Part shown: in pieces, positions 606-10,025 of the stretch | Layout of the letters: each line of letters begins with the position of its first letter | How positions within the stretch are numbered: position 1 is the stretch's first letter | IMG/VR virus record: IMGVR_UViG_2695420855_000005 | Span: 1 to 18,451 of that record | Reading direction: 5' to 3' (one strand) | Origin: a virus | Lineage: Duplodnaviria; Heunggongvirae; Uroviricota; Caudoviricetes | DNA length: 18,451 nt | Made by a program: the position numbers and the translations under genes | Notes under the pieces: model-generated | The model's input: only the letters and a program-made list of their open reading frames with translations | Databases searched by the model: none | Told to the model about the DNA's origin: nothing

Positions 606-2753
<2,148 letters not shown>

Positions 2754-2805: not shown

Positions 2806-3621
2806 TCAGAAAAGAGAAGATTGCTGTGGAATAGCCGGAACTGCTCCGATCTCTGGAAGCGTTTTACGTAAGTCTTCCCACAGGGTATGTACCAGTTCCG
2901 GGGCCTGGGCAATGTCTGGCGTATGTAAAAAAAGATAAGGCGTAGTGGTCTGATGCCACTGCGCTAATTTCTGTAACCAGACCTGAAATAATTCCCGGTT
3001 TTGCGTCATATCATCACTACCGATAAAACGGATCAGCGGATTTGTCGCCGTCAGTACAGCATGTACTGGAACTTTAGGTTTTTTTCGTTGAGCGTCGCGA
3101 ATAGCTTCACTGTGTGGACATGCTGCATGAACCGGGCGGCTGTCTAAAATCACCCGATTAACGCCGCGCTGATGTAAACCGCGATTAAGCGTTTGTTCCT
3201 CTTCCCCTTTGGCGAAAAACTGTGGATGGCGGACTTCCACACCATAATTAAATTCGCCAGGGAGAGAATCGAGAAAATGCCAAAGCGCAGGCAGCTCCCG
3301 TGGGCCGAATGTGGCAGGCAGTTGCAGCCAGTATTGCCCAATGCGCGGAGCCAACGGTGACATGCGGGTCAAAAATTCAGTCACTAAATCATCGCAATGT
3401 CGTAATGCTGCCTGATGCGAAATGGTCGCCGGAAACTTAAAACAGAAGCGGAAGTCATCTGTGGTCTGTTCACGCCAGCGCAGGACAACCTCGGGTTTCG
3501 GCAGGGCGTAAAGCGTGGTGTTGCCCTCCACGCAGTTAATGTGACGGCAACTACCATTAAAATAACTGATATTTAAAGATATTATTTCAGAGTCTGGCTC
3601 TATGGGGCATGTATGGGACAC
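2806..3621 (-). CDS. yecE: DUF72-family protein YecE; 5' ~80 nt appear prophage-derived (hybrid ORF with GTG start), so the N-terminus is probably non-native
   Basis: From ...NCVEGNTTLYALPKPEVVLRWREQTTDDFRFCFKFPATISHQAAL... onward it reads as YecE; first ~27 codons (MSHTCPIEPDSEIISLNISYFNGSCRH) overlap the integrase 3' end and lack the usual DUF72 N-terminal motif (from memory). Confidence 0.75.
   Translation of the reverse strand: MSHTCPIEPDSEIISLNISYFNGSCRHINCVEGNTTLYALPKPEVVLRWREQTTDDFRFCFKFPATISHQAALRHCDDLVTEFLTRMSPLAPRIGQYWLQLPATFGPRELPALWHFLDSLPGEFNYGVEVRHPQFFAKGEEEQTLNRGLHQRGVNRVILDSRPVHAACPHSEAIRDAQRKKPKVPVHAVLTATNPLIRFIGSDDMTQNRELFQVWLQKLAQWHQTTTPYLFLHTPDIAQAPELVHTLWEDLRKTLPEIGAVPAIPQQSSLF
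3535..3590. other. Approximate attL (prophage-host junction): AT-rich stretch at the overlap of the int 3' end and the yecE 5' end
   Basis: Inferred from where yecE-like coding sequence begins and from the int stop at 3587-3589; exact core not determinable without attR or an empty-site sequence. Confidence 0.4.
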
Positions 3622-4873
3622 TCTCTGTCAACTGCTTATTGAGTAGTTCTATTTGCCCGATATTGTTATCTTCCATCCATGCACCGTAAACGTTGAATAC
3701 CATTTGTGCATTTGCATGGCCCATTTGGTTTGCTATGAAGCTTGGATTCGCTCCTGCCGATAATGCCCAGCAGGCATAAGTATGCCTAGACTGATAGGCT
3801 TTTCTGTGCCGCAGTCCTGCTCGCCTTAATGCAGATGCCCAGGAATCTCTGATGGAATCTGCTTTATAGTGGTGGCCGACTTGCTGGCATTTTTTCACCA
3901 GTTGCGGATTAAAAACAAACGTGCATTCATGGCTTGTGCTGCGTCCGAACTCCCGCAGTTTGACATCAATTTGATATTGCTGGTCAAACCTTGTCATTTC
4001 AGCCTGGCTTTTCAGGGCATCAACAGCTGGTTGAACAAGATGAATAACACGATCAGTTCCCGCCTCTGTTTTTGGTAGAGTGAACTCCCCGAGTTTTGTA
4101 TAATTACGACGGATAGTCATTGTTTTAGCTTTTAAATCAATATCCTCCCAGGCGAGAGCTATTAGCTCACCGTGACGAATGCCTGTGTATACTGCTAAGG
4201 ACCACAGGTTTTTCGTTTGTTGATGGTGACAGGCATCAATAAAGCGAATAAATTCGTCACGCGTGAGCGGATCTGGCTCTGTTCTTGATCTCTTTAATGG
4301 TGTCAGCCCGTTAAATGGGTTTGACCCGATATAGCCGTTATCAGCAGCAAATTGAAACATTCCTGCAATTGTCGTCATGTAGTAATTAACCGTAACTACC
4401 GATCTCCCTTTAACCGGCGTTGTTTTTCCATTAGAGAGATTATGATACCCGGTTAACAAATCTTTCCTGATAAACAGTAAATCTTCCTTTGTTACAGACG
4501 AAGCAAGACGTTTTTCCCCTATGCGAGGAAGCATGTTTCTCACCACGGATTGATACCGACTGAATGCATTGCTTCCTATCTCTATTTTCTTAAGGTCCAG
4601 CCATTTTTCCGAAAGTGCCTTAACTGTTATCTCTCTTTTCCCCAGGCCAAAGTGTTTCAGGTTAGGGGAATTAGGGAACTGCGCGGCGTAGTCGAAACTC
4701 CCCATTCTGATTGCAAAACAAACGGAAGTGCGAAGTTCACCTGCGATCTTCCGGTTTTTGGCGGTGTCAGGAACACCGAGGTTTTCTCTGACACGTTTGC
4801 CATTATAGTGAAACCATATGCGGAGTGATCCGCCATGGTTTTCAACGCCTGTCGGGTATGATGCGTTACTCAT
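3587..4873 (-). CDS. int: Phage tyrosine integrase (site-specific recombinase)
   Basis: 428 aa; C-terminal catalytic region ...LRHRKAYQSRHTYACWALSAGANPSFIANQMGHANAQMVFNVYGAWM... consistent with the R-H-R-Y tyrosine-recombinase signature; strong RBS GGGAGG before the ATG. Confidence 0.92.
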   Translation of the reverse strand: MSNASYPTGVENHGGSLRIWFHYNGKRVRENLGVPDTAKNRKIAGELRTSVCFAIRMGSFDYAAQFPNSPNLKHFGLGKREITVKALSEKWLDLKKIEIGSNAFSRYQSVVRNMLPRIGEKRLASSVTKEDLLFIRKDLLTGYHNLSNGKTTPVKGRSVVTVNYYMTTIAGMFQFAADNGYIGSNPFNGLTPLKRSRTEPDPLTRDEFIRFIDACHHQQTKNLWSLAVYTGIRHGELIALAWEDIDLKAKTMTIRRNYTKLGEFTLPKTEAGTDRVIHLVQPAVDALKSQAEMTRFDQQYQIDVKLREFGRSTSHECTFVFNPQLVKKCQQVGHHYKADSIRDSWASALRRAGLRHRKAYQSRHTYACWALSAGANPSFIANQMGHANAQMVFNVYGAWMEDNNIGQIELLNKQLTESVPYMPHRARL

Positions 4874-4906: not shown

Positions 4907-5161
4907 TTAACCGGAACTTGCATTTTTGGCACCTGGTTGTTTCTGGTTTTCGATCCATCGCATAATTTCTTCGATGTTGTACAGGCATTCACTGTAGTGC
5001 CCCGGATCACCTTCTACAGCGTAATGGCGGTATTCTTTTCCCTGCATCCATGACTTTCTTCTTGCCCGCTCAATGGTGCCAGGCTTTAGCCCTGTTGATG
5101 CAATGAGGACTCTCTCCGTACACCATTTGCTGGGGGTTATCTGATAGATGATTGTCTGCAT
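4907..5161 (-). CDS. xis: Excisionase-like small DNA-binding protein
   Basis: 84 aa basic protein directly upstream of int on the same strand; GAGG RBS; sequence resembles winged-helix excisionase-like proteins. Confidence 0.7.
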   Translation of the reverse strand: MQTIIYQITPSKWCTERVLIASTGLKPGTIERARRKSWMQGKEYRHYAVEGDPGHYSECLYNIEEIMRWIENQKQPGAKNASSG

Positions 5162-5164
5162 GCC

Positions 5165-5314
5165 AACCTCATAAAATTTTCATCCACGGCAGTGGCACCA
5201 CACGTCAAACATTCGTTTCACAACTTCACGGCAGTAGAAACCGTCAACATCTCGCGTCAGGTCATAGCGATTGCCGTAACGCTGGCGTACCAATAGCTCA
5301 AACGCTTTATTCAT
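5165..5314 (-). CDS. Hypothetical small protein (49 aa, MNKAFELLVRQRYGNRYDLTRDVDGFYCREVVKRMFDVWCHCRG)
   Basis: Not in the supplied track (<60 aa); ATG preceded by AAGGAAG RBS; fills the gap between the neighbouring ORFs on the same strand. Confidence 0.4.
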
Positions 5315-5317
5315 TCT

Positions 5318-5560
5318 TTACTTCCTTTTCATGGCACGTAATTTTTTCAGATGAGCTTCTTGTTCTGTTTCTGCCAGAATTTGTCGGTATTCCTGGTGAT
5401 CGATCCGTTCAAACGATTCATTAAAATCGTTCATTTTTACCGATTGTGTTTGCCCGTCCATTCTTCTGTACAACACGGTGTTGTTTATGCAGCGAACAAT
5501 TTTTACCGGGTAACCGGCACTGTCGGTATACAGTTGTCCCTGATTAATCAGAGCGAACAT
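5318..5560 (-). CDS. Hypothetical phage protein (about 80 aa from the internal ATG with CAGGAG RBS)
   Basis: ORF MFALINQGQLYTDSAGYPVKIVRCINNTVLYRRMDGQTQSVKMNDFNESFERIDHQEYRQILAETEQEAHLKKLRAMKRK; packed in the leftward operon. Confidence 0.5.
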   Translation of the reverse strand: MFALINQGQLYTDSAGYPVKIVRCINNTVLYRRMDGQTQSVKMNDFNESFERIDHQEYRQILAETEQEAHLKKLRAMKRK

Positions 5561-5591
5561 TTTTTCTCCTGCTCTCTGAATAGTGAGAACT

Positions 5592-5975
5592 TCAGAGCCG
5601 TATGTTTGTAGCGGGTTCAATGCTGATAATTTCTGCTGAGATAAGCATCCCGGCAAGCCAGAGCTCTCCGGACAGGTCTTCATCCTGGCATATCAGTTCG
5701 CCAATATTAATGGTGGCCATGATATCCGTTTCCCCTGTGCGCTCATCCAGGACTTCTTCATAAGGCAGCGTTGCGTGCAGACTTTCAATAGCGCAATTGA
5801 TAACATCTAGTCCGGTCAGATTGCCGCCGACAGTAACTTCGAATGTTTCGCGGTATTCCCATAGTCCGAAAGTTAATCGAACGGTTTGTTTTGCCATGCG
5901 TCCGCACGACGTCAGATTCGGGTCATAGTTCATTATTTGCGGTTGAGCATTCTGGTTGTTCATCTGATTTTCCAT
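5592..5975 (-). CDS. Hypothetical protein (about 127 aa; start uncertain, several in-frame ATGs without a strong RBS)
   Basis: Long ORF immediately downstream of the SPFH lipoprotein gene on the same strand; no recognisable motif. Confidence 0.5.
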   Translation of the reverse strand: MENQMNNQNAQPQIMNYDPNLTSCGRMAKQTVRLTFGLWEYRETFEVTVGGNLTGLDVINCAIESLHATLPYEEVLDERTGETDIMATINIGELICQDEDLSGELWLAGMLISAEIISIEPATNIRL

Positions 5976-6003
5976 TAACCCGGCGGTTTGCCGGGCGTGT
6001 AAG

Positions 6004-6831
6004 TTATTTAATCTGGATAAATGGTGTATTGGCACCACTGGTCATGTATTGCGGCAGTGTACCGTTCCACTTGTTGATGGCTTCCAGCTCCATGACGCTA
6101 GGGTTCTGGCGCAGAGCTTCGCCGCGTAAACGAATGGCATCGGCTTCTGCTTGGGCTTTTGTTCGAATGGCATCAGCCTGTCCGGCAGCTTCTGCACGCA
6201 GCATGTTGGCCTCCGCTTCACGTTGCTTGACTTCCTGTTCGCGCTGCAGGGTTTTCTGGTTTGCCGTGACTTTGGCGTTAATGCTGTCGATAACGGTTGG
6301 CGGGTATTCCGGTTTACCTACATAAGAGAGGCTCATTACCTGAATGCCGATGGGTGTCATCTCTTCCTGAATGTCTTTAAGTGCGGCATCCAGTAGTTCA
6401 GACTTGCCGCCGTCGATAAATTTGTCGGTGGTCATTTTGCTGGCCAGTCGATTGAGTGCGTCGGCGATCTTCTGGCGCAGGTCAGTGTCGGTAATGTCAT
6501 CCACGCCTTTGCGGTAGGTCTGAAACACCGTGGTAACTTTGGATGGATCAACTTTGTAGGCAACACCGATGTGATAGCCGATGGTTGTGCCGTCACTCAT
6601 CTGGAAGCTGAATGGCTCATCGTAGGTCTTCATTTGTTTGAAGGTTGGGAAGATGTAAACTTCAGTATTCCAGCCAGTCCAGTAGCGACCAACACCGACC
6701 ACCTCACCGACGCCTTTATCGTCGCCCAGTTTATTTACTTTGATGCCAACATTACCGGGTTCAACGCGATCGCAACCGACAAGGCCAATGGTCGGCAGAA
6801 CAATGGCTAAAGCAAAAATAATTTTTTTCAT
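6004..6831 (-). CDS. SPFH/band-7 (prohibitin/HflC-like) domain lipoprotein; lipobox LVGC with Asp at +2 suggests inner-membrane retention
   Basis: MKKIIFALAIVLPTIGLVGCD signal/lipobox; SPFH core then Ala/Glu/Gln-rich coiled coil ...QREQEVKQREAEANMLRAEAAGQADAIRTKAQAEADAIRLRGEALRQNP... typical of the band-7 C-terminus. Confidence 0.85.
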   Translation of the reverse strand: MKKIIFALAIVLPTIGLVGCDRVEPGNVGIKVNKLGDDKGVGEVVGVGRYWTGWNTEVYIFPTFKQMKTYDEPFSFQMSDGTTIGYHIGVAYKVDPSKVTTVFQTYRKGVDDITDTDLRQKIADALNRLASKMTTDKFIDGGKSELLDAALKDIQEEMTPIGIQVMSLSYVGKPEYPPTVIDSINAKVTANQKTLQREQEVKQREAEANMLRAEAAGQADAIRTKAQAEADAIRLRGEALRQNPSVMELEAINKWNGTLPQYMTSGANTPFIQIK

Positions 6832-7016
6832 TTTTTATCCTTAGTGAAAGAAAGACCCTTGTAAATGGCATAAATGCAGGGCGGGGTCAGAAACGCCAGT
6901 GCAAAGCCAGAAATAACTGCTCTCGTATCCTTCATGGATATAAGGAACGGAACGAGTAATCCGTAAATGCATGCGATAATTGCCAGTAAAATTACTATTG
7001 TGAAATACAGTCTCAT
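6828..7016 (-). CDS. Small two-helix membrane protein (62 aa), translationally coupled (ATGA overlap) to the SPFH lipoprotein gene
   Basis: MRLYFTIVILLAIIACIYGLLVPFLISMKDTRAVISGFALAFLTPPCIYAIYKGLSFTKDKK, two hydrophobic segments; weak RBS. Confidence 0.55.
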   Translation of the reverse strand: MRLYFTIVILLAIIACIYGLLVPFLISMKDTRAVISGFALAFLTPPCIYAIYKGLSFTKDKK

Positions 7017-7161
7017 TGGTATGTGGTATCCCGATATTTTTAACTGACAGACAGCGCAATAAAGAGAATAATGATTTCTGTTAGTGTCAGTACTGTGGCA
7101 AGGATTAAAAGCAGTTTTACTCTGCTTAATTCACGGTTGCTTTTCATATAAACGGTTAGTA

Positions 7162-7190
7162 AAAAACGGAAGAGTTATATTCTTCTTAAT
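7162..7190 (-). terminator. Weak intrinsic-terminator candidate downstream of the 190-aa gene (minus strand GAAGA-atataac-TCTTC followed by cgTTTTTT)
   Basis: 5-bp stem, 7-nt loop and T6 run read on the minus strand just after the stop at 7201-7203. Confidence 0.3.
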
Positions 7191-7200
7191 ATTTAATGTG

Positions 7201-7773
7201 TCACTGGCCTTCTGGCATACCATGAGTATTCAGGTCGTTAATTATTTCATCCAGAAGGAGTTCAAGCCCTTCTCGACCTATATCTGAAAGAATGAAACCT
7301 TTATCAGGGGAAGTGGTGAGCATTTTCTGATAAAGAAACAGCGCTCTTCCCATTCCCTCAGCTTCGCCATATGTTTGAATTAAATTCCATTCAATATACT
7401 GCTGTAAGGTAAACCGAATGGGACCTGGGTATATAGTCATAACTCCATGCTTCCCGTTATATATTACGGCGCGATCTGTTGTTCCGTGTTCATTCGGGAC
7501 ATCAATTGTGCCGTTCTTGTCTTCTTCTTCGTTGATGAATGTTGTCACGTACAGCCATCGCCACTGGACTATTTTCATCTCAACAGGGAGTTTTCCCAGT
7601 AATCCTGCATTGTCGGCTTGCGCGAGGCATTGAAGGATTTGCAAACCTTTCACATTAGGATGATCGAATTCACCGGCATCCAGACGGCGGATTGCGTCGT
7701 GATAATCAATAGTCATACTGCCAGTTCGTATACCTGTGGCTGTTGCTTCAGCCTGGAATTCAGCGTATTGCAT
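7201..7773 (-). CDS. Hypothetical protein, 190 aa, no recognisable family
   Basis: ATG preceded by GAGGAG; the upstream gene's stop overlaps this RBS (coupled); moderately acidic, no TM segments. Confidence 0.7.
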   Translation of the reverse strand: MQYAEFQAEATATGIRTGSMTIDYHDAIRRLDAGEFDHPNVKGLQILQCLAQADNAGLLGKLPVEMKIVQWRWLYVTTFINEEEDKNGTIDVPNEHGTTDRAVIYNGKHGVMTIYPGPIRFTLQQYIEWNLIQTYGEAEGMGRALFLYQKMLTTSPDKGFILSDIGREGLELLLDEIINDLNTHGMPEGQ

Positions 7774-7778
7774 GATAT

Positions 7779-7961
7779 TTACTCCTCATCTTCATCTGCT
7801 GGTGCAATAACGTCATATCCTGCCTTTTCTGCAATAAACAGGAATGTTGAAAGACTTCCTACAAGTTCATCGTCATGAACATGACGAATTAATATTACTT
7901 TCCCGTTTTTGATGGTCAGCAATACTCTGGTTTGCTCGTGTTCTGCTGTTTTCTGATGCAT
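7779..7961 (-). CDS. Hypothetical small protein, 60 aa, acidic C-terminus (…APADEDEE)
   Basis: GGGAGA RBS 5 nt before the ATG; first gene of a two-gene cassette with the 190-aa ORF. Confidence 0.55.
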   Translation of the reverse strand: MHQKTAEHEQTRVLLTIKNGKVILIRHVHDDELVGSLSTFLFIAEKAGYDVIAPADEDEE

Positions 7962-8086
7962 TATTATCTCCCATATGCTTTACGCAGAAACAAGCAGGCA
8001 ATATGCATGTAATTTTTCCCGTGCTGTGCAATAAGGCAGGCTGTTTTGTGTGATGCCTTATGTTTTATAAAGGTCATATAAAACCT

Positions 8087-8116
8087 CCTGTGGATTAAGG
8101 GTGTGATAATCCCAGG
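8087..8116. promoter_or_regulatory. Inverted repeat (cctgTGGATTA-n9-TAATCCcagg) in the 200-bp gap upstream of the 60-aa/190-aa cassette; candidate operator
   Basis: Perfect 7-bp arms tggatta/taatcca separated by 9 nt, with partially complementary flanks. Confidence 0.35.
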
Positions 8117-8158
8117 CGATTAAGCCGTAATATATTATCCGGAGATGACTTGTTCTAT

Positions 8159-8359
8159 TTAACTGGTTAGTTCTTTTTCAGCAGCTGCTTCAGCATAGCA
8201 ACGTGCGAATTCAAGAACTTCATCACCTGTTCTTTTTATTGCGTCGTTGTCTGACATTTGTAATACAACAACTGCGCATAATAAATTATGGATATTGTTT
8301 GCAAAGGAATCCGGTGCCAGGCATAAGCCTTCATACTTATCATGGATATTGCCAGTCAT
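8159..8359 (-). CDS. Small protein (66 aa from the ATG with AAGGAG RBS) paralogous to the N-terminal domain of the upstream tandem-HTH protein
   Basis: ...LAPDSFANNIHNLLCAVVVLQMSDNDAIKRTGDEVLEFARCYAEAAAE... aligns with ...LDLDSFALTIANLLSAVRTFNLLDDTRLKEVGFDVLEFTHEYALAIA... of the neighbouring gene; ATGA start/stop overlap. Confidence 0.6.
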   Translation of the reverse strand: MTGNIHDKYEGLCLAPDSFANNIHNLLCAVVVLQMSDNDAIKRTGDEVLEFARCYAEAAAEKELTS

Positions 8360-9057
8360 TGTTGCTGCTCCTTTGCTTCTGATTTTCCCGTTAACAACCA
8401 CATCAGGTCACAATTAAGTGCACTGGCCAGTGGTACTATCTGAGCAGCTGGAACTTCATGGATGCCGCATTCCCAGTCGTTTATGGGGTCACTATAGGTA
8501 TGAATCATGCGGGCAAGATCAGATTCGGTTAATCCCAGTTTTGTACGGGCGCTTTTGATGCGTGCGCCAATACTTTCCACATGGACTTCAGGCGCATTTA
8601 CGCGAATAACTGACTCGCTGTTTTTTTCACTCAGCAGAGAAAGCGGATCGCATCCCAGGACGTTTGCCAGGGGGATAAGCATGCTGATGGTTGGTTCGTA
8701 CTCTCCACTCTCCCATTGCAGGATAATCTCTTCGTCAAGATCGAGTAGTCTGGCCAGTTCGGTAGTCGTCAAGCCGCAGGCTTCACGTTTGGTGCGTATG
8801 CAGGCTATCTTGTTGCCTGAGCGAATAGAATGTTGTTGTTTTGTCGATGCGATCGCTAAAGCATATTCATGAGTAAATTCCAGCACATCAAACCCAACCT
8901 CTTTTAATCGCGTATCATCCAGGAGGTTGAAGGTGCGAACAGCACTGAGCAGGTTTGCGATGGTTAATGCAAAAGAATCGAGGTCTAATTCATCACATAA
9001 AACCTTGTTGTAAGTATTGAGGCTACATGTTTTTGGTGTTGTTTGTAAGGCTTCCAT
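8356..9057 (-). CDS. DNA-binding protein with an N-terminal domain of unknown function followed by two tandem XRE-type helix-turn-helix domains; first gene of the leftward early operon (alternative TTG start at 9093)
   Basis: Two HTH_XRE-like segments (...LTTTELARLLDLDEEIILQWESGEYEPTISMLIPLANVLGCDPLSLL... and ...LTESDLARMIHTYSDPINDWECGIHEVPAAQIVPLASALNCDLMWLL...); ATG at 9057 has a GGTGAT RBS. Confidence 0.75.
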   Translation of the reverse strand: MEALQTTPKTCSLNTYNKVLCDELDLDSFALTIANLLSAVRTFNLLDDTRLKEVGFDVLEFTHEYALAIASTKQQHSIRSGNKIACIRTKREACGLTTTELARLLDLDEEIILQWESGEYEPTISMLIPLANVLGCDPLSLLSEKNSESVIRVNAPEVHVESIGARIKSARTKLGLTESDLARMIHTYSDPINDWECGIHEVPAAQIVPLASALNCDLMWLLTGKSEAKEQQQ

Positions 9058-9111
9058 ATCATCACCATGCAATTCTAAGTTGAAGTTAATCAATATATAA
9101 TTGATGGTGAG

Positions 9112-9203: not shown

Positions 9204-9893
9204 CTAACCAAATCTGTTGATATTGAATGGTACAGATGAGATGACTTTTGACTGGATATACAGCAGCGCCATTCCCTCTTTTTCGATGCTCCACGGCTGA
9301 TAGTTGGGATTGTCTGATAAGACCATGATCTTGCTTCCAATTTTTTGAAGTCGTTTGACGTAACATTCGCCATCAAAGCAAAATGCATAAATGCCATCAC
9401 CGTCAAAATAAGTTACTGTTTTATCTAAAAACAGTAAGTCACCTGGGGCGATTGTTGGGGCCATGCTGTCCCCTCTGGCGTTACCGATTTCTATGTTCTT
9501 GAATGCTCTGTTACCGACCAGGCGGCGGGCATATTCAGGATCAAGTTCTATTGAGCGTACTACATCAATTAGATCTCCCCGTACATGAGTTCCGTCGCCG
9601 CAGCTGAATTCAACATCCAGCACATTGAACACAACGCTGTCTTCTCTTGTATGGTGTTTTTCAGCTGAAGAGTGTGTCGATGAGGTATCTTCACCCAAAA
9701 ACCAGGATTGTGGATAACCACTAATTACTGATAGCTGTGCAAGTTTATCGCTTCTGGGAAACGTCTTTCCTGTAGTCCAGTATTGTACTGATTGCGCGCT
9801 TACACCCAGCTTACGGGCTAGTTCAGCCTGACTCCAGCCTTTCGTTTTCAGCATCATTGCTATCCGATTTTCTGTGCTTTTTACATTCTTCAT
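9204..9893 (-). CDS. cI: Prophage CI-type repressor (N-terminal HTH_XRE + C-terminal LexA/S24 peptidase-like autocleavage domain)
   Basis: HTH ...WSQAELARKLGVSAQSVQYWTTG...; S24 region ...GDSMAPTIAPGDLLFLD...YVKRL... (Ser/Lys dyad); AGGA RBS before the ATG at 9891-9893; divergent from the cro-like gene. Confidence 0.9.
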   Translation of the reverse strand: MKNVKSTENRIAMMLKTKGWSQAELARKLGVSAQSVQYWTTGKTFPRSDKLAQLSVISGYPQSWFLGEDTSSTHSSAEKHHTREDSVVFNVLDVEFSCGDGTHVRGDLIDVVRSIELDPEYARRLVGNRAFKNIEIGNARGDSMAPTIAPGDLLFLDKTVTYFDGDGIYAFCFDGECYVKRLQKIGSKIMVLSDNPNYQPWSIEKEGMALLYIQSKVISSVPFNINRFG

Positions 9894-10025
9894 GGTGAGT
9901 TCCTGTCGAGGCTTTATACACATAAATATTAACTTGATTTTAGTGTATTCGATCCTTTTGAAACTTGCATGTTAATTTATTCTTGATATATTCTTGATTT
10001 GTAAAGTTAATATTGGAGCTGCGCT
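9894..10025. promoter_or_regulatory. Immunity-region intergenic (OR-like): divergent promoters and repeated CTTGAT motifs that are candidate operator half-sites
   Basis: AT-rich 132 bp between divergent cI and cro; CTTGAT three times (aaCTTGATttta, ttCTTGATatat, ttCTTGATttgt); possible rightward promoter TTGATA-n18-TAATAT. Confidence 0.5.

What the first reader, a model, noticed from the sequence alone, without database searches (positions are those of the whole stretch)
6004..7016. Two-gene membrane module: small 2-TM protein translationally coupled to an SPFH/band-7 lipoprotein
SPFH proteins are usually anchored by an N-terminal TM helix and paired with NfeD-type partners. Here the SPFH domain is on a lipoprotein (lipobox LVGC, Asp at +2) and its partner is a 62-aa two-helix membrane protein overlapping it by ATGA. 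The pair sits in the AT-rich int-to-cI region where lambdoid phages carry superinfection-exclusion or host-modifying genes, apparently behind its own promoter after a terminator-like hairpin. A candidate envelope-acting exclusion or defence module.
Basis: partly seen in the sequence, partly recalled or inferred. Interest (0 to 1): 0.6.

Follow-up and report, generated by a model that had tools for sequence, protein, structure and literature searches.

The report
Phage SPFH lipoprotein with small membrane partner
The two genes are real and form a tightly coupled pair, a lipid-anchored membrane-scaffold (SPFH) protein plus a tiny two-helix membrane protein, but the pair is a very common, still uncharacterised cassette of many phages (including lytic phage N4) and bacteria, not a special prophage defence locus.

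Summary
On the minus strand, a 62-aa two-helix membrane protein (7016..6828) overlaps by ATGA a 275-aa SPFH/Band-7 lipoprotein (6831..6004; lipobox LVGC, Cys20, Asp21). The window is the left arm of a phiP27-like Stx prophage.

The pair is an old, widespread module:
- In 75 of 79 assessable diverse bacterial loci, a homologous or similar two-helix ORF lies directly upstream of the SPFH gene or is fused to it.
- 19 of 150 distant family representatives are natural fusions, and all of them keep the lipobox Cys.
- 421 phage records carry the SPFH gene, including strictly lytic phages. N4 gp19/gp20 is the same pair.
- Dyella and Leptospira carry it in ordinary chromosomal contexts.

The partner has no Pfam, NCBIfam or PDB match and is not NfeD. 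The SPFH model (pLDDT 92) matches cage-forming HflK/C, prohibitin, erlin and stomatin.

Most likely the pair builds a periplasm-facing SPFH cage on the inner membrane, with the partner hairpins as its transmembrane part. This cage would act on a conserved host inner-membrane client.

A prophage-specific exclusion or defence role is neither supported nor excluded. The claimed own promoter and terminator are not supported. I found no functional study.

The parts
6828..7016 (-). Partner gene: a 62-aa two-helix inner-membrane protein. Predicted topology is N-in / short periplasmic loop / C-in. Conserved motif P23-x-L-I-S27-x-x-D-T, with G37.
   Evidence: ORF. phrog_1130 E=1.2e-22. No Pfam, NCBIfam or PDB match. 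P23 and S27 are invariant across 20 diverse homologues. Homologues lie upstream of the SPFH gene in 69 of 80 loci by HMM.
6004..6831 (-). SPFH/Band-7 lipoprotein, 275 aa. Signal peptide aa 1-19, lipidated Cys20, SPFH domain about 22-175, long coiled-coil helix 178-242, then a conserved C-terminal KWNGxLP tail.
   Evidence: Pfam Band_7 6.1e-31. phrog_200 'lipoprotein' 1.3e-114. AF2 pLDDT 92.2. Foldseek best hits are HflK, HflC, prohibitin, erlin and stomatin.
6772..6831 (-). Type II (lipoprotein) signal peptide MKKIIFALAIVLPTIGLVGC. Lipobox LVGC; Cys20 codon 6774..6772. The next codon (6771..6769) is Asp21, the Lol-avoidance inner-membrane retention signal known from E. coli.
   Evidence: Read. 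Cys is at least 90% conserved. Asp follows the Cys in all 95 close homologues that contain the C-x-RVEPG motif. Retention by Asp at +2 is established E. coli knowledge and was not tested here.
6828..6842 (-). Translational-coupling junction: Shine-Dalgarno AAGGA (6842..6838) inside the end of the partner ORF, and the ATGA stop/start overlap (6831..6828).
   Evidence: Read. The same 4-nt overlap (or 8, 16 or 20 nt) occurs in phiP27, Fraca, Salmonella, Pantoea, Lelliottia, Xenorhabdus, Morganella, P1-like and N4 copies.
5978..6000 (-). Short GC hairpin (CCCGGC-aaacc-GCCGGG) between the SPFH stop and the DUF5406 start. It has no T tail, so it is not a canonical terminator and marks the lower edge of the cassette only loosely.
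   Evidence: Read. Not reported by the terminator scan.

Best explanation
The two genes encode the two subunits of one membrane complex: a 'split' SPFH scaffold on the periplasmic face of the inner membrane.

**Shown**
- The large protein is a full-length SPFH protomer: SPFH domain, a roughly 65-residue coiled-coil helix, and a conserved C-terminal tail. It has a lipoprotein signal peptide in place of the usual N-terminal transmembrane helix.
- The small protein is a conserved two-helix hairpin with an invariant Pro and Ser at the outer end of helix 1.
- The two genes are translationally coupled here.
- They are adjacent or fused in nearly all relatives across many phyla.

**Inferred**
- After lipidation at Cys20, with retention in the inner membrane by Asp21, the SPFH protomers oligomerise into an HflK/C- or prohibitin-like cage over a patch of inner membrane.
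- The partner hairpins, made in about 1:1 amounts, provide the transmembrane 'fence' that the N-terminal helices of HflK/C provide. They would contact the lipid-anchored foot of the cage through the P-x-L-I-S loop.

**Inferred more weakly**
- In this prophage the pair is transcribed with the leftward early operon on infection or induction.
- It acts on a conserved host inner-membrane client. The most likely client is an FtsH-type quality-control machine, as for HflK/C, QmcA and prohibitins.
- The effect would be to re-tune membrane protein homeostasis in the infected cell. The pair would not be a phage-specific exclusion device.

The confidence of 0.45 is for the whole chain. I put about 0.6-0.65 on the two-subunit cage and about 0.3 on an FtsH-type client.
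For: **SPFH identity and cage-type architecture**
- Pfam hit and AF2 model with pLDDT 92.
- Foldseek E=1e-13 to 1e-14 to HflK/HflC, prohibitin 1/2, erlin, stomatin, flotillin and QmcA over the whole length.
- PDB profile search: prohibitin-1 at 4.9e-11, HflK at 5.7e-8.

**Lipoprotein anchor conserved**.

**Obligate partnership**
- ATGA coupling, conserved across lineages.
- Partner HMM hit directly upstream or fused in 69 of 80 loci. Four more carry motif-bearing or similar two-helix ORFs and two are divergent fusions, giving 75 of 79 assessable.
- 19 of 150 representatives at 50% identity are natural fusions: two helices, a basic linker, a signal-like helix, the lipobox, then SPFH. The lipobox Cys is invariant in them.
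- An AF2 model of one fusion gives three N-terminal helices before the SPFH domain.

**Topology**: the basic C-terminus of the partner and the basic linkers of the fusions place the loop outside.

**Host-directed, generic role**
- The same cassette sits in unrelated phage backbones. The mature SPFH protein is 94-96% identical between this prophage, P2-like P88 and a P1-like phage, and 65% identical to N4 gp20. The partners are only 22-25% identical.
- It occurs in lytic phages.
- It occurs in chromosomal, non-phage neighbourhoods in Dyella and Leptospira.

**Operon position**: all genes from 9093 down to int are co-directional and tightly packed, with no promoter-like site upstream of the pair.
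Against: - No experiment on any member of this subfamily was found. A 2026 paper states that the role of the SPFH lipoprotein of an N4-like phage is unclear (PMC13239085).
- Oligomerisation, lipidation, the partner contact and the client are all inferred.
- The FtsH link rests only on analogy with relatives. NCBIfam HflK/HflC models score far below their cut-offs.
- The mature SPFH domain works with partners that share only about 22% identity. The contact may therefore be loose, or may run through the signal peptide or the lipid.
- Four loci have the SPFH lipoprotein without any detectable partner.
- Expression timing in this prophage is unknown.
Confidence: 0.45

Rival explanations
1. This is the first reader's idea: a superinfection-exclusion or anti-phage defence module. 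The membrane complex would block DNA entry or another envelope step of incoming phages. It would be expressed either in the lysogen or early in lytic infection.
For: - Envelope location and accessory (moron-type) position. PHROG files the partner under 'moron, auxiliary metabolic gene and host takeover'.
- In lytic phages the pair lies in early or middle gene regions: N4 gp19/gp20 next to the RNAPII genes, and Pa223 about 5-6.5 kb from the genome end. From my own knowledge, exclusion genes such as T4 imm/sp and T5 llp sit in such regions.
- In N4 and in Kuttervirus PhiSH19, a phrog_1510 'superinfection exclusion' homologue lies immediately upstream of the small-membrane-ORF + SPFH pair.
- The partner evolves fast while the SPFH domain is conserved.
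Against: - No match to 5027 PADLOC defence models.
- Only 3 papers in the library mention both SPFH and anti-phage; neither of the 2 listed was relevant.
- The same cassette serves phages with quite different entry routes (lambdoid, P1, P2, N4).
- The mature protein is under strong conservation, with no arms-race-like diversification.
- Orthologous pairs sit in ordinary chromosomal contexts.
- No autonomous promoter was detected for lysogen expression.
Confidence: 0.22
2. A lysogenic-conversion or virulence factor. The triacylated lipoprotein would be made in the lysogen, reach vesicles or the cell surface, and act on the animal host. This has been reported for the prophage-encoded HflK/C-like protein PM0222 of Pasteurella multocida.
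For: - PM0222 is encoded on a lambda-like prophage and is detected in lysogen cells and outer-membrane vesicles. It signals through TLR1/2, and its deletion attenuates virulence (PMC9872710).
- This window belongs to Stx-converting phages of pathogenic E. coli.
Against: - Homology of PM0222 to this subfamily was not verified.
- Asp at +2 predicts inner-membrane retention, not surface exposure.
- The pair is equally common in lytic phages of plant, soil and gut bacteria and in environmental bacteria. A host-animal function therefore cannot be its general role.
Confidence: 0.08
3. A lysis-timing or membrane-stabilising accessory. The cage would stiffen or compartmentalise the inner membrane to delay holin triggering or to protect membrane energisation, increasing burst size.
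For: - Presence in many lytic phages and expression from early regions.
- From my own knowledge, SPFH proteins organise membrane microdomains, and N4 is known for much-delayed lysis.
Against: - The pair is never seen next to lysis genes in the loci examined.
- No data exist.
- Chromosomal orthologues argue for a non-lysis primary function.
Confidence: 0.12
4. Two independent genes that merely lie next to each other, the small ORF being either spurious or an unrelated membrane peptide.
For: The small ORF has a weak ribosome-binding site and no Pfam family.
Against: - Sequence-conserved homologues with an invariant Pro and Ser lie in the same position across Proteobacteria, Bacteroidota, Firmicutes, Actinobacteria, Spirochaetes and many phages.
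- The coupling overlaps are conserved.
- There are 19 natural fusions.
Confidence: 0.03

Closest known systems
HflK/HflC (E. coli FtsH modulator cage)
   Same: Same fold over the whole length, and among the best structural matches (7vhq, 7wi3, 9cz2). Same side of the membrane, with the SPFH domain in the periplasm. It is also a two-gene operon encoding a membrane complex.
   Different: HflK and HflC are two SPFH paralogues, each anchored by its own N-terminal transmembrane helix. Here there is one SPFH protein anchored by lipid plus a non-SPFH hairpin. NCBIfam HflC and HflK models score 26 and 24 bits against cut-offs of 134 and 159. No link to FtsH has been shown.
Prohibitin 1/2
   Same: Closest solved relatives by sequence profile (E=4.9e-11). 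Similar length and layout: SPFH, one long coiled coil, and a short C-terminal tail.
   Different: Eukaryotic and mitochondrial, a hetero-oligomer of two paralogues, with an N-terminal transmembrane anchor. No lipoprotein signal and no hairpin partner.
SPFH-NfeD operons (QmcA-YbbJ, YqiK-YqiJ, archaeal stomatin-STOPP)
   Same: An SPFH gene in an operon with a small membrane-protein gene. The partner is thought to sit with, or inside, the cage (8z5g appears among the fold matches).
   Different: NfeD partners carry a C-terminal OB-fold domain (Pfam NfeD), and QmcA faces the cytoplasm. The 62-aa partner here has no room for that domain. None of 20 diverse partners matched NfeD or any other Pfam family convincingly.
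Phage N4 gp19 (membrane protein) / gp20 (lipoprotein)
   Same: The same two-gene module. gp20 is 62% identical overall (65% in the mature part). gp19 carries the LPSMVS motif. The overlap is 8 nt.
   Different: Strictly lytic Schitoviridae phage, located in the early/middle region next to gp18 (phrog_1510). I found no published function for it either.
Small membrane/lipoprotein superinfection-exclusion proteins (T4 Imm and Sp, T5 Llp, phi80 Cor) - comparison from my own knowledge
   Same: Early or accessory phage genes encoding small inner-membrane proteins or lipoproteins that act at the envelope.
   Different: No sequence or fold relationship. None contains an SPFH domain. Exclusion activity has not been tested for this pair.

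Membership tests
SPFH / Band 7 superfamily (Pfam PF01145) | Sequence match to the SPFH domain above the curated threshold | tested here: met
   Band_7 at 108.3 bits against a cut-off of 23.6, E=6.1e-31, residues 22-208.
SPFH / Band 7 superfamily (Pfam PF01145) | SPFH alpha/beta domain followed by a long coiled-coil helix and a C-terminal tail, as in cage-forming members | tested here: met
   AF2 model at pLDDT 92.2 with helix 178-242. Full-length Foldseek matches to HflK/C, prohibitin, erlin, stomatin and flotillin.
SPFH / Band 7 superfamily (Pfam PF01145) | Assembly into large ring or cage oligomers on a membrane | not testable with these tools
   Only monomer prediction is available. Needs multimer modelling, BN-PAGE or cryo-EM.
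Bacterial lipoproteins (type II signal peptide) | Basic n-region, hydrophobic h-region, and a lipobox [LVI][ASTVI][GAS]C within the first ~35 residues | tested here: met
   MKK-IIFALAIVLPTIG-LVGC. Cys is at least 90% conserved in 67 distant relatives. At least 109 of 150 representatives have a lipobox.
Bacterial lipoproteins (type II signal peptide) | Actual acylation by Lgt and cleavage by LspA; inner-membrane retention through Asp at +2 | not testable with these tools
   Asp21 is present, and Asp follows the Cys in all 95 close homologues that contain the C-x-RVEPG motif. The retention rule is E. coli textbook knowledge.
HflK / HflC equivalogs | Score above the NCBIfam equivalog cut-offs; N-terminal transmembrane anchor; paired HflK+HflC paralogues | tested here: not met
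   TIGR01932 at 26.2 bits (cut-off 134.4). TIGR01933 at 23.5 bits (cut-off 159.4). Lipoprotein anchor and a single SPFH gene.
SPFH-NfeD operon | Partner protein with an NfeD C-terminal OB-fold domain | tested here: not met
   The partner is 62 aa with two helices only. No NfeD hit for it or for 19 diverse homologues at E<=1.
PHROG 200 (lipoprotein) + PHROG 1130 (membrane protein) | Profile match to both phage protein families | tested here: met
   phrog_200 E=1.3e-114; phrog_1130 E=1.2e-22.
Known anti-phage defence systems (PADLOC-DB v2) | Match of either protein to a defence-system model | tested here: not met
   No hit at E<=0.1 for the SPFH protein, the partner, the 35-aa ORF, DUF5406 or phrog_1515.
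Two-helix (P-x-L-I-S) + SPFH-lipoprotein module, as defined here | Two-helix hairpin with conserved Pro, Ser and Gly, encoded directly upstream of, overlapping, or fused to an SPFH protein with a lipobox | tested here: met
   Window. Family.

The most novel reading that the evidence does not exclude
The pair would represent an unrecognised, ancient class of two-component SPFH system: an exoplasmic, lipid-anchored cage plus a dedicated P-x-L-I-S hairpin subunit. This would be an alternative to SPFH-NfeD. Virulent and temperate phages of many families (N4, P1-like, P2-like, lambdoid, and possibly crAss-like) would have captured it repeatedly as a host-takeover tool acting at the inner membrane. 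In the fused forms, the conserved internal lipobox would imply cleavage of one precursor into both subunits by signal peptidase II.
Probability: 0.3. Interest if true: 0.65.

Novelty: new variant of a known kind. Interest (0 to 1): 0.42.

Why it matters
**For SPFH biology.** SPFH cages (HflK/C, prohibitin, stomatin, flotillin, erlin) are a very active structural topic, yet all solved examples are anchored by their own hydrophobic segments. A subfamily of thousands of clusters that uses a lipid anchor plus a separate, conserved hairpin subunit would add a new way of building such cages. It would also add a new partner family beside NfeD.

**For phage biology.** The pair is one of the more widespread accessory cassettes with no assigned role:
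- 421 of 50,697 phage records carry the SPFH gene.
- About 9% of complete E. coli genomes have it, including Stx phages.
- It is present in classic model phage N4.

Genetics to find out what it does (membrane proteostasis, lysogeny control through FtsH, exclusion, or lysis timing) is therefore readily available.

**For this window.** The result is sobering. The locus is a common, already annotated gene pair, not a special defence island.

Tried and rejected
- **Own promoter or terminator.** The consensus scan of 5200-8400 found nothing upstream of the pair on the minus strand, and fewer sites overall than in shuffles. The RNA fold of the 7017-7205 spacer is not unusual (z=-1.06).
- **Third gene.** The 35-aa ORF (7147..7040), DUF5406 (5975..5592) and phrog_1515 (7773..7201) co-occur with the pair only in phiP27-type prophages. 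They are absent from the P88, Fraca, P1-like and N4 copies and from 80 genome loci. Rejected as parts of the module.
- **NfeD or any known family for the partner.** Pfam, NCBIfam, PADLOC and PDB profile searches gave only noise.
- **Serine protease.** This is the legacy annotation in Stx phage records. No protease domain was found.
- **The search for related loci with the 67-sequence alignment** failed for lack of a conserved stretch. It was repeated with 11 sequences.
- **The first viral-contig scan** returned only near-identical copies, so it was useless for diversity.
- **The AFDB50 fold library** was not available.
- **IS1 inverted-repeat search in L085** found nothing. The insertion was identified instead from an InsA-like peptide.
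- **Literature searches** for SPFH with prophage, lipoprotein, anti-phage, superinfection exclusion, phage-encoded, lipobox, N4-like, Stx, and N4 gp19/gp20 found no functional study.
- **Homology of P. multocida PM0222** to this subfamily could not be checked, because no sequence was at hand.
Full report
**1. Observation**

Both genes lie on the minus strand. The ORF at 7016..6828 encodes 62 aa and the ORF at 6831..6004 encodes 275 aa. Reading the sequence:
- The partner's stop TGA (6830..6828) overlaps the SPFH start ATG (6831..6829), giving ATGA.
- An AAGGA Shine-Dalgarno lies 6 nt upstream of that ATG, inside the end of the small ORF.

The large protein matches Pfam Band_7 (E=6.1e-31, residues 22-208). 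It begins MKKIIFALAIVLPTIGLVGC-D, which is a basic n-region, a hydrophobic core, the lipobox LVGC, then Asp at +2. The small protein has two hydrophobic helices and matches phrog_1130, 'membrane protein'.

**2. Genomic setting**

The 1.3 kb around the pair is 98.8% identical to many Stx2-converting phages and 93.8% identical to phage phiP27. It is found in 512 of 5426 complete E. coli genomes, with 421 chromosomal and 174 plasmid places.

The window carries the left arm of such a prophage, with all of these genes on the minus strand:
- int (4873..3587) and xis (5161..4907)
- DUF4222 and DUF5406 ORFs
- the pair
- a 35-aa ORF
- phrog_1515
- a double-HTH regulator (9093..8356)
- a CI-like repressor (9923..9204)

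These genes are co-directional and tightly packed. The promoter/terminator scan found no site on the coding strand upstream of the pair, and the region has fewer such sites than shuffled sequence. The spacer upstream holds only a weak AT-rich 5-bp hairpin followed by a T run. The claim of an own promoter behind a terminator is not supported. Transcription with the leftward early operon is the simpler reading, but that is an inference.

The SPFH gene is 50-52% GC. Only the partner and the spacer are AT-rich.

**3. The SPFH protein**

An exhaustive profile search of 1.84 billion cluster representatives found 3057 clusters at E<=1e-3 and 230 at E<=1e-30. Among the best 150, at least 109 have a lipobox by a strict pattern. 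Cys20 is at least 90% conserved in a 67-sequence alignment at 30-63% identity. A lipoprotein anchor is therefore the rule in this subfamily and is no peculiarity of this phage.

AlphaFold2 gives a confident model (pLDDT 92.2). It shows the SPFH alpha/beta domain, one helix of about 65 residues (178-242), and a short tail of lower confidence.

Structural and sequence comparisons place it with cage-forming SPFH proteins:
- Foldseek against the PDB returns, at E=1e-13 to 1e-14 over the full length, HflK and HflC, prohibitin 1/2, erlin 1/2 and stomatin. Flotillin and QmcA follow.
- By sequence profile, the nearest solved proteins are prohibitin-1 (4.9e-11) and HflK (5.7e-8).
- It is not an HflK or HflC equivalog: 26 and 24 bits against cut-offs of 134 and 159.

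**4. The partner**

It has no convincing Pfam, NCBIfam, PADLOC or PDB match, either alone or as 20 diverse homologues. It is too short to carry the OB-fold that defines NfeD.

Aligned homologues from Enterobacterales, Xanthomonadales, Leptospira, Bacteroidota, Firmicutes and phages share only 16-41% identity. All of them keep Pro23 and Ser27, and nearly all keep Gly37. This gives the motif P-x-[LM]-[ILV]-S-x-x-[ST/D] at the end of helix 1.

The basic C-terminus, and the basic linkers in the fused forms, place both termini in the cytoplasm and the motif loop at the periplasmic surface (inference from the positive-inside rule).

**5. The pairing is ancient and nearly obligatory**

I examined 80 diverse genome loci encoding relatives at 34-97% identity. 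An HMM of the partner hits the same strand upstream of the SPFH gene, or fused to it, in 69 of them. In 67 the hit directly abuts the SPFH gene; in two (L085, L086) an insertion lies between. The remaining eleven break down as follows:
- Three Sutterella loci carry motif-bearing two-helix ORFs, and one Cupriavidus locus carries a variant (TPWLINQ).
- Two are fusions with a divergent N-terminal region.
- One is cut by the contig end.
- Four have no partner.

That gives 75 of 79 assessable loci with a partner.

Other evidence points the same way:
- Stop/start overlaps of 4, 8, 16 or 20 nt recur in phiP27, Fraca, P1-like, N4, Salmonella, Pantoea, Lelliottia, Xenorhabdus and Morganella copies.
- Nineteen of the 150 representatives are natural fusions: two helices, a basic linker, a signal-like helix, the lipobox, then SPFH.
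- In an alignment of these fusions the lipobox Cys is invariant.
- An AF2 model of one fusion shows three N-terminal helices followed by the SPFH fold.

Fusion plus coupling is classical evidence for a physical complex in roughly equal amounts.

**6. Distribution**

tblastn finds the SPFH protein in 421 of 50,697 phage records. The two-gene arrangement was checked directly in the following phages.

Temperate:
- P2-like P88
- HK97-like Fraca
- a P1-like phage
- Burkholderia phi644-2, with the TPWLVNQ partner variant

Strictly lytic:
- N4: gp19 'membrane protein' with LPSMVS, plus gp20 'lipoprotein', 8-nt overlap
- Vequintavirinae 4MG
- Bruynoghevirus Pa223
- a crAss-like phage, where the partner hit is weak

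More distant SPFH lipoproteins have a different small membrane ORF upstream. In phiCbK it is a 3-helix protein. In Kuttervirus PhiSH19 it is an unannotated 72-aa two-helix ORF with a 4-nt overlap.

The pair also occurs outside phages:
- In Dyella it lies between a BlaI/BlaR1-type regulator pair, a hemerythrin gene and ribonucleotide reductase.
- In Leptospira it lies next to succinate dehydrogenase.

In a Eubacteriaceae MAG the fused form lies beside a phage terminase.

The flanking genes of this window (the 35-aa ORF, DUF5406 and phrog_1515) accompany the pair only in phiP27-type prophages. The mobile unit is therefore the two genes alone.

**7. A mosaic detail**

Nucleotide similarity between this window and P88 or P1-like phages covers only the mature SPFH part, window 6037-6783. 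At protein level the identities to the window copy are as follows.

| Phage | Mature SPFH | Signal peptide | Partner |
|---|---|---|---|
| P88 | 96% | 57% | 22% |
| P1-like | 94% | 35% | 24% |
| N4 | 65% | 33% | 25% |

The strongly conserved mature domain suggests a conserved target. The partner and the signal peptide are exchanged or diverge as a block.

**8. How it most likely works**

Shown: a complete SPFH protomer with a lipoprotein signal, a conserved hairpin partner, and coupling or fusion of the two.

Inferred:
- After lipidation, with inner-membrane retention through Asp+2 (the E. coli Lol-avoidance rule), the protomers form an HflK/C- or prohibitin-like cage on the periplasmic face.
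- A lipid anchor reaches only the outer leaflet. The partner hairpins would therefore supply the membrane-spanning fence that the N-terminal helices provide in HflK/C. They would contact the foot of the cage through the P-x-L-I-S loop.

More weakly inferred:
- The client enclosed by the cage is a conserved host inner-membrane machine.
- By analogy with HflK/C, QmcA and prohibitins, this is most plausibly FtsH.
- In a lambdoid phage that would touch CII, CIII and Xis stability. In any phage it would touch membrane protein quality control.

I put about 0.6-0.65 on the complex/cage part and about 0.3 on the FtsH-type client.

**9. Rivals**

- **Exclusion or defence** (0.22) fits the envelope location, the accessory position, and early-region placement in lytic phages. 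It also fits the adjacency to a phrog_1510 'superinfection exclusion' homologue in both N4 and PhiSH19. Against it: there is no PADLOC match, and the library search linking SPFH to anti-phage defence turned up nothing relevant. The same highly conserved protein serves phages with unrelated entry routes. It also exists as an ordinary chromosomal gene pair.
- **Virulence-lipoprotein role**, as reported for PM0222 (PMC9872710), cannot be general and remains unverified for this family (0.08).
- **Lysis-timing or membrane-stabilising role** is possible but has no positional support (0.12).
- **Chance adjacency** is excluded (0.03).

**10. Comparison and novelty**

The large protein is a bona fide SPFH family member of the prohibitin/HflK-like kind. 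The operon logic resembles SPFH-NfeD, but the partner is not NfeD. RefSeq and PHROG already annotate both genes ('SPFH domain-containing protein', 'lipoprotein', 'membrane protein'), and the copy in this window is ordinary.

I found no description of three things:
- that the hairpin partner is conserved;
- that it is near-universally linked to lipoprotein-type SPFH proteins;
- that natural fusions keep the lipobox.

A 2026 paper on an N4-like phage states that the reason a phage carries this lipoprotein is unclear (PMC13239085).

I therefore rate it as a new variant of a known kind, of moderate interest. It does not single out this prophage as carrying a novel defence system.

Noticed in passing
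L165 2407-3831 (phage N4 gp18-gp20); L173 641-1958 (Salmonella phage PhiSH19): In two unrelated lytic phage families, a phrog_1510 'superinfection exclusion' (P22 gp17-like) gene lies immediately upstream of a small membrane ORF plus an SPFH lipoprotein. The two phrog_1510 proteins are 56% identical to each other. In PhiSH19 the small ORF (1650..1432, 72 aa, 4-nt overlap) is unannotated and lacks the P-x-L-I-S motif.
   Followed up: partly
Alignment A4 (P0160, P0164, P0167 ... P0303): All natural fusions of the two-helix partner with the SPFH protein keep an invariant lipobox Cys after a third, signal-like helix. This suggests either internal cleavage by signal peptidase II into two subunits or internal translation starts.
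   Followed up: partly
window 6037-6783 versus L082 (P88) and L084 (P1-like): There is a mosaic boundary at the signal-peptide/mature junction. The mature SPFH protein is 94-96% identical across phage types, while the partner is 22-24% and the signal peptide 35-57% identical. Partner and signal peptide diverge or are exchanged as one block.
   Followed up: partly
L085 4233-5000 and L086 4224-5000 (Shigella flexneri, E. coli chromosomes): An insertion of about 770 bp separates the partner from the SPFH gene and alters the partner's C-terminus. It encodes an IS1 InsA-like peptide (MAMNGVGCRATARIMGVGL). My remembered IS1 end sequence was not found.
   Followed up: partly
window 7040-7147 (-): A 35-aa single-helix ORF lies just upstream of the pair. 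It has no ribosome-binding site or family match. It is conserved only in phiP27-type prophages (49 of 80 near-identical loci).
   Followed up: yes
window 8356-9093 (-): A 245-aa protein with two HTH domains (phrog_4836 'CII-like regulator') lies directly downstream of the CI-like repressor on the same strand. Its HTH parts also hit PADLOC RmrA, HTH and control-protein models.
   Followed up: no
L170 1201-2400 (Burkholderia phage phi644-2): The annotated 'lipoprotein' CDS is an SPFH lipoprotein running into an rve integrase-core domain (Pfam rve, rve_3). This is probably a transposase insertion or read-through at its 3' end.
   Followed up: partly
L094 5001-5150 (Candidatus Symbiopectobacterium): The SPFH ORF is truncated after 50 codons, although the partner ORF upstream is intact. 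It is likely a pseudogene in this symbiont.
   Followed up: no
Stx2 phage records LC567818-LC567842; phiP27 AJ298298: The SPFH gene is annotated 'serine protease' or 'putative serine protease' in these records. No protease domain is detectable, so the label looks like a legacy error.
   Followed up: yes
L084 2968-4012 (P1-like phage MH422554): In P1-like phage-plasmids the cassette lies next to the ban-type replicative helicase gene, and the partner ORF (78 aa, 20-nt overlap) is unannotated. From memory, this is a variable accessory locus of P1.
   Followed up: no
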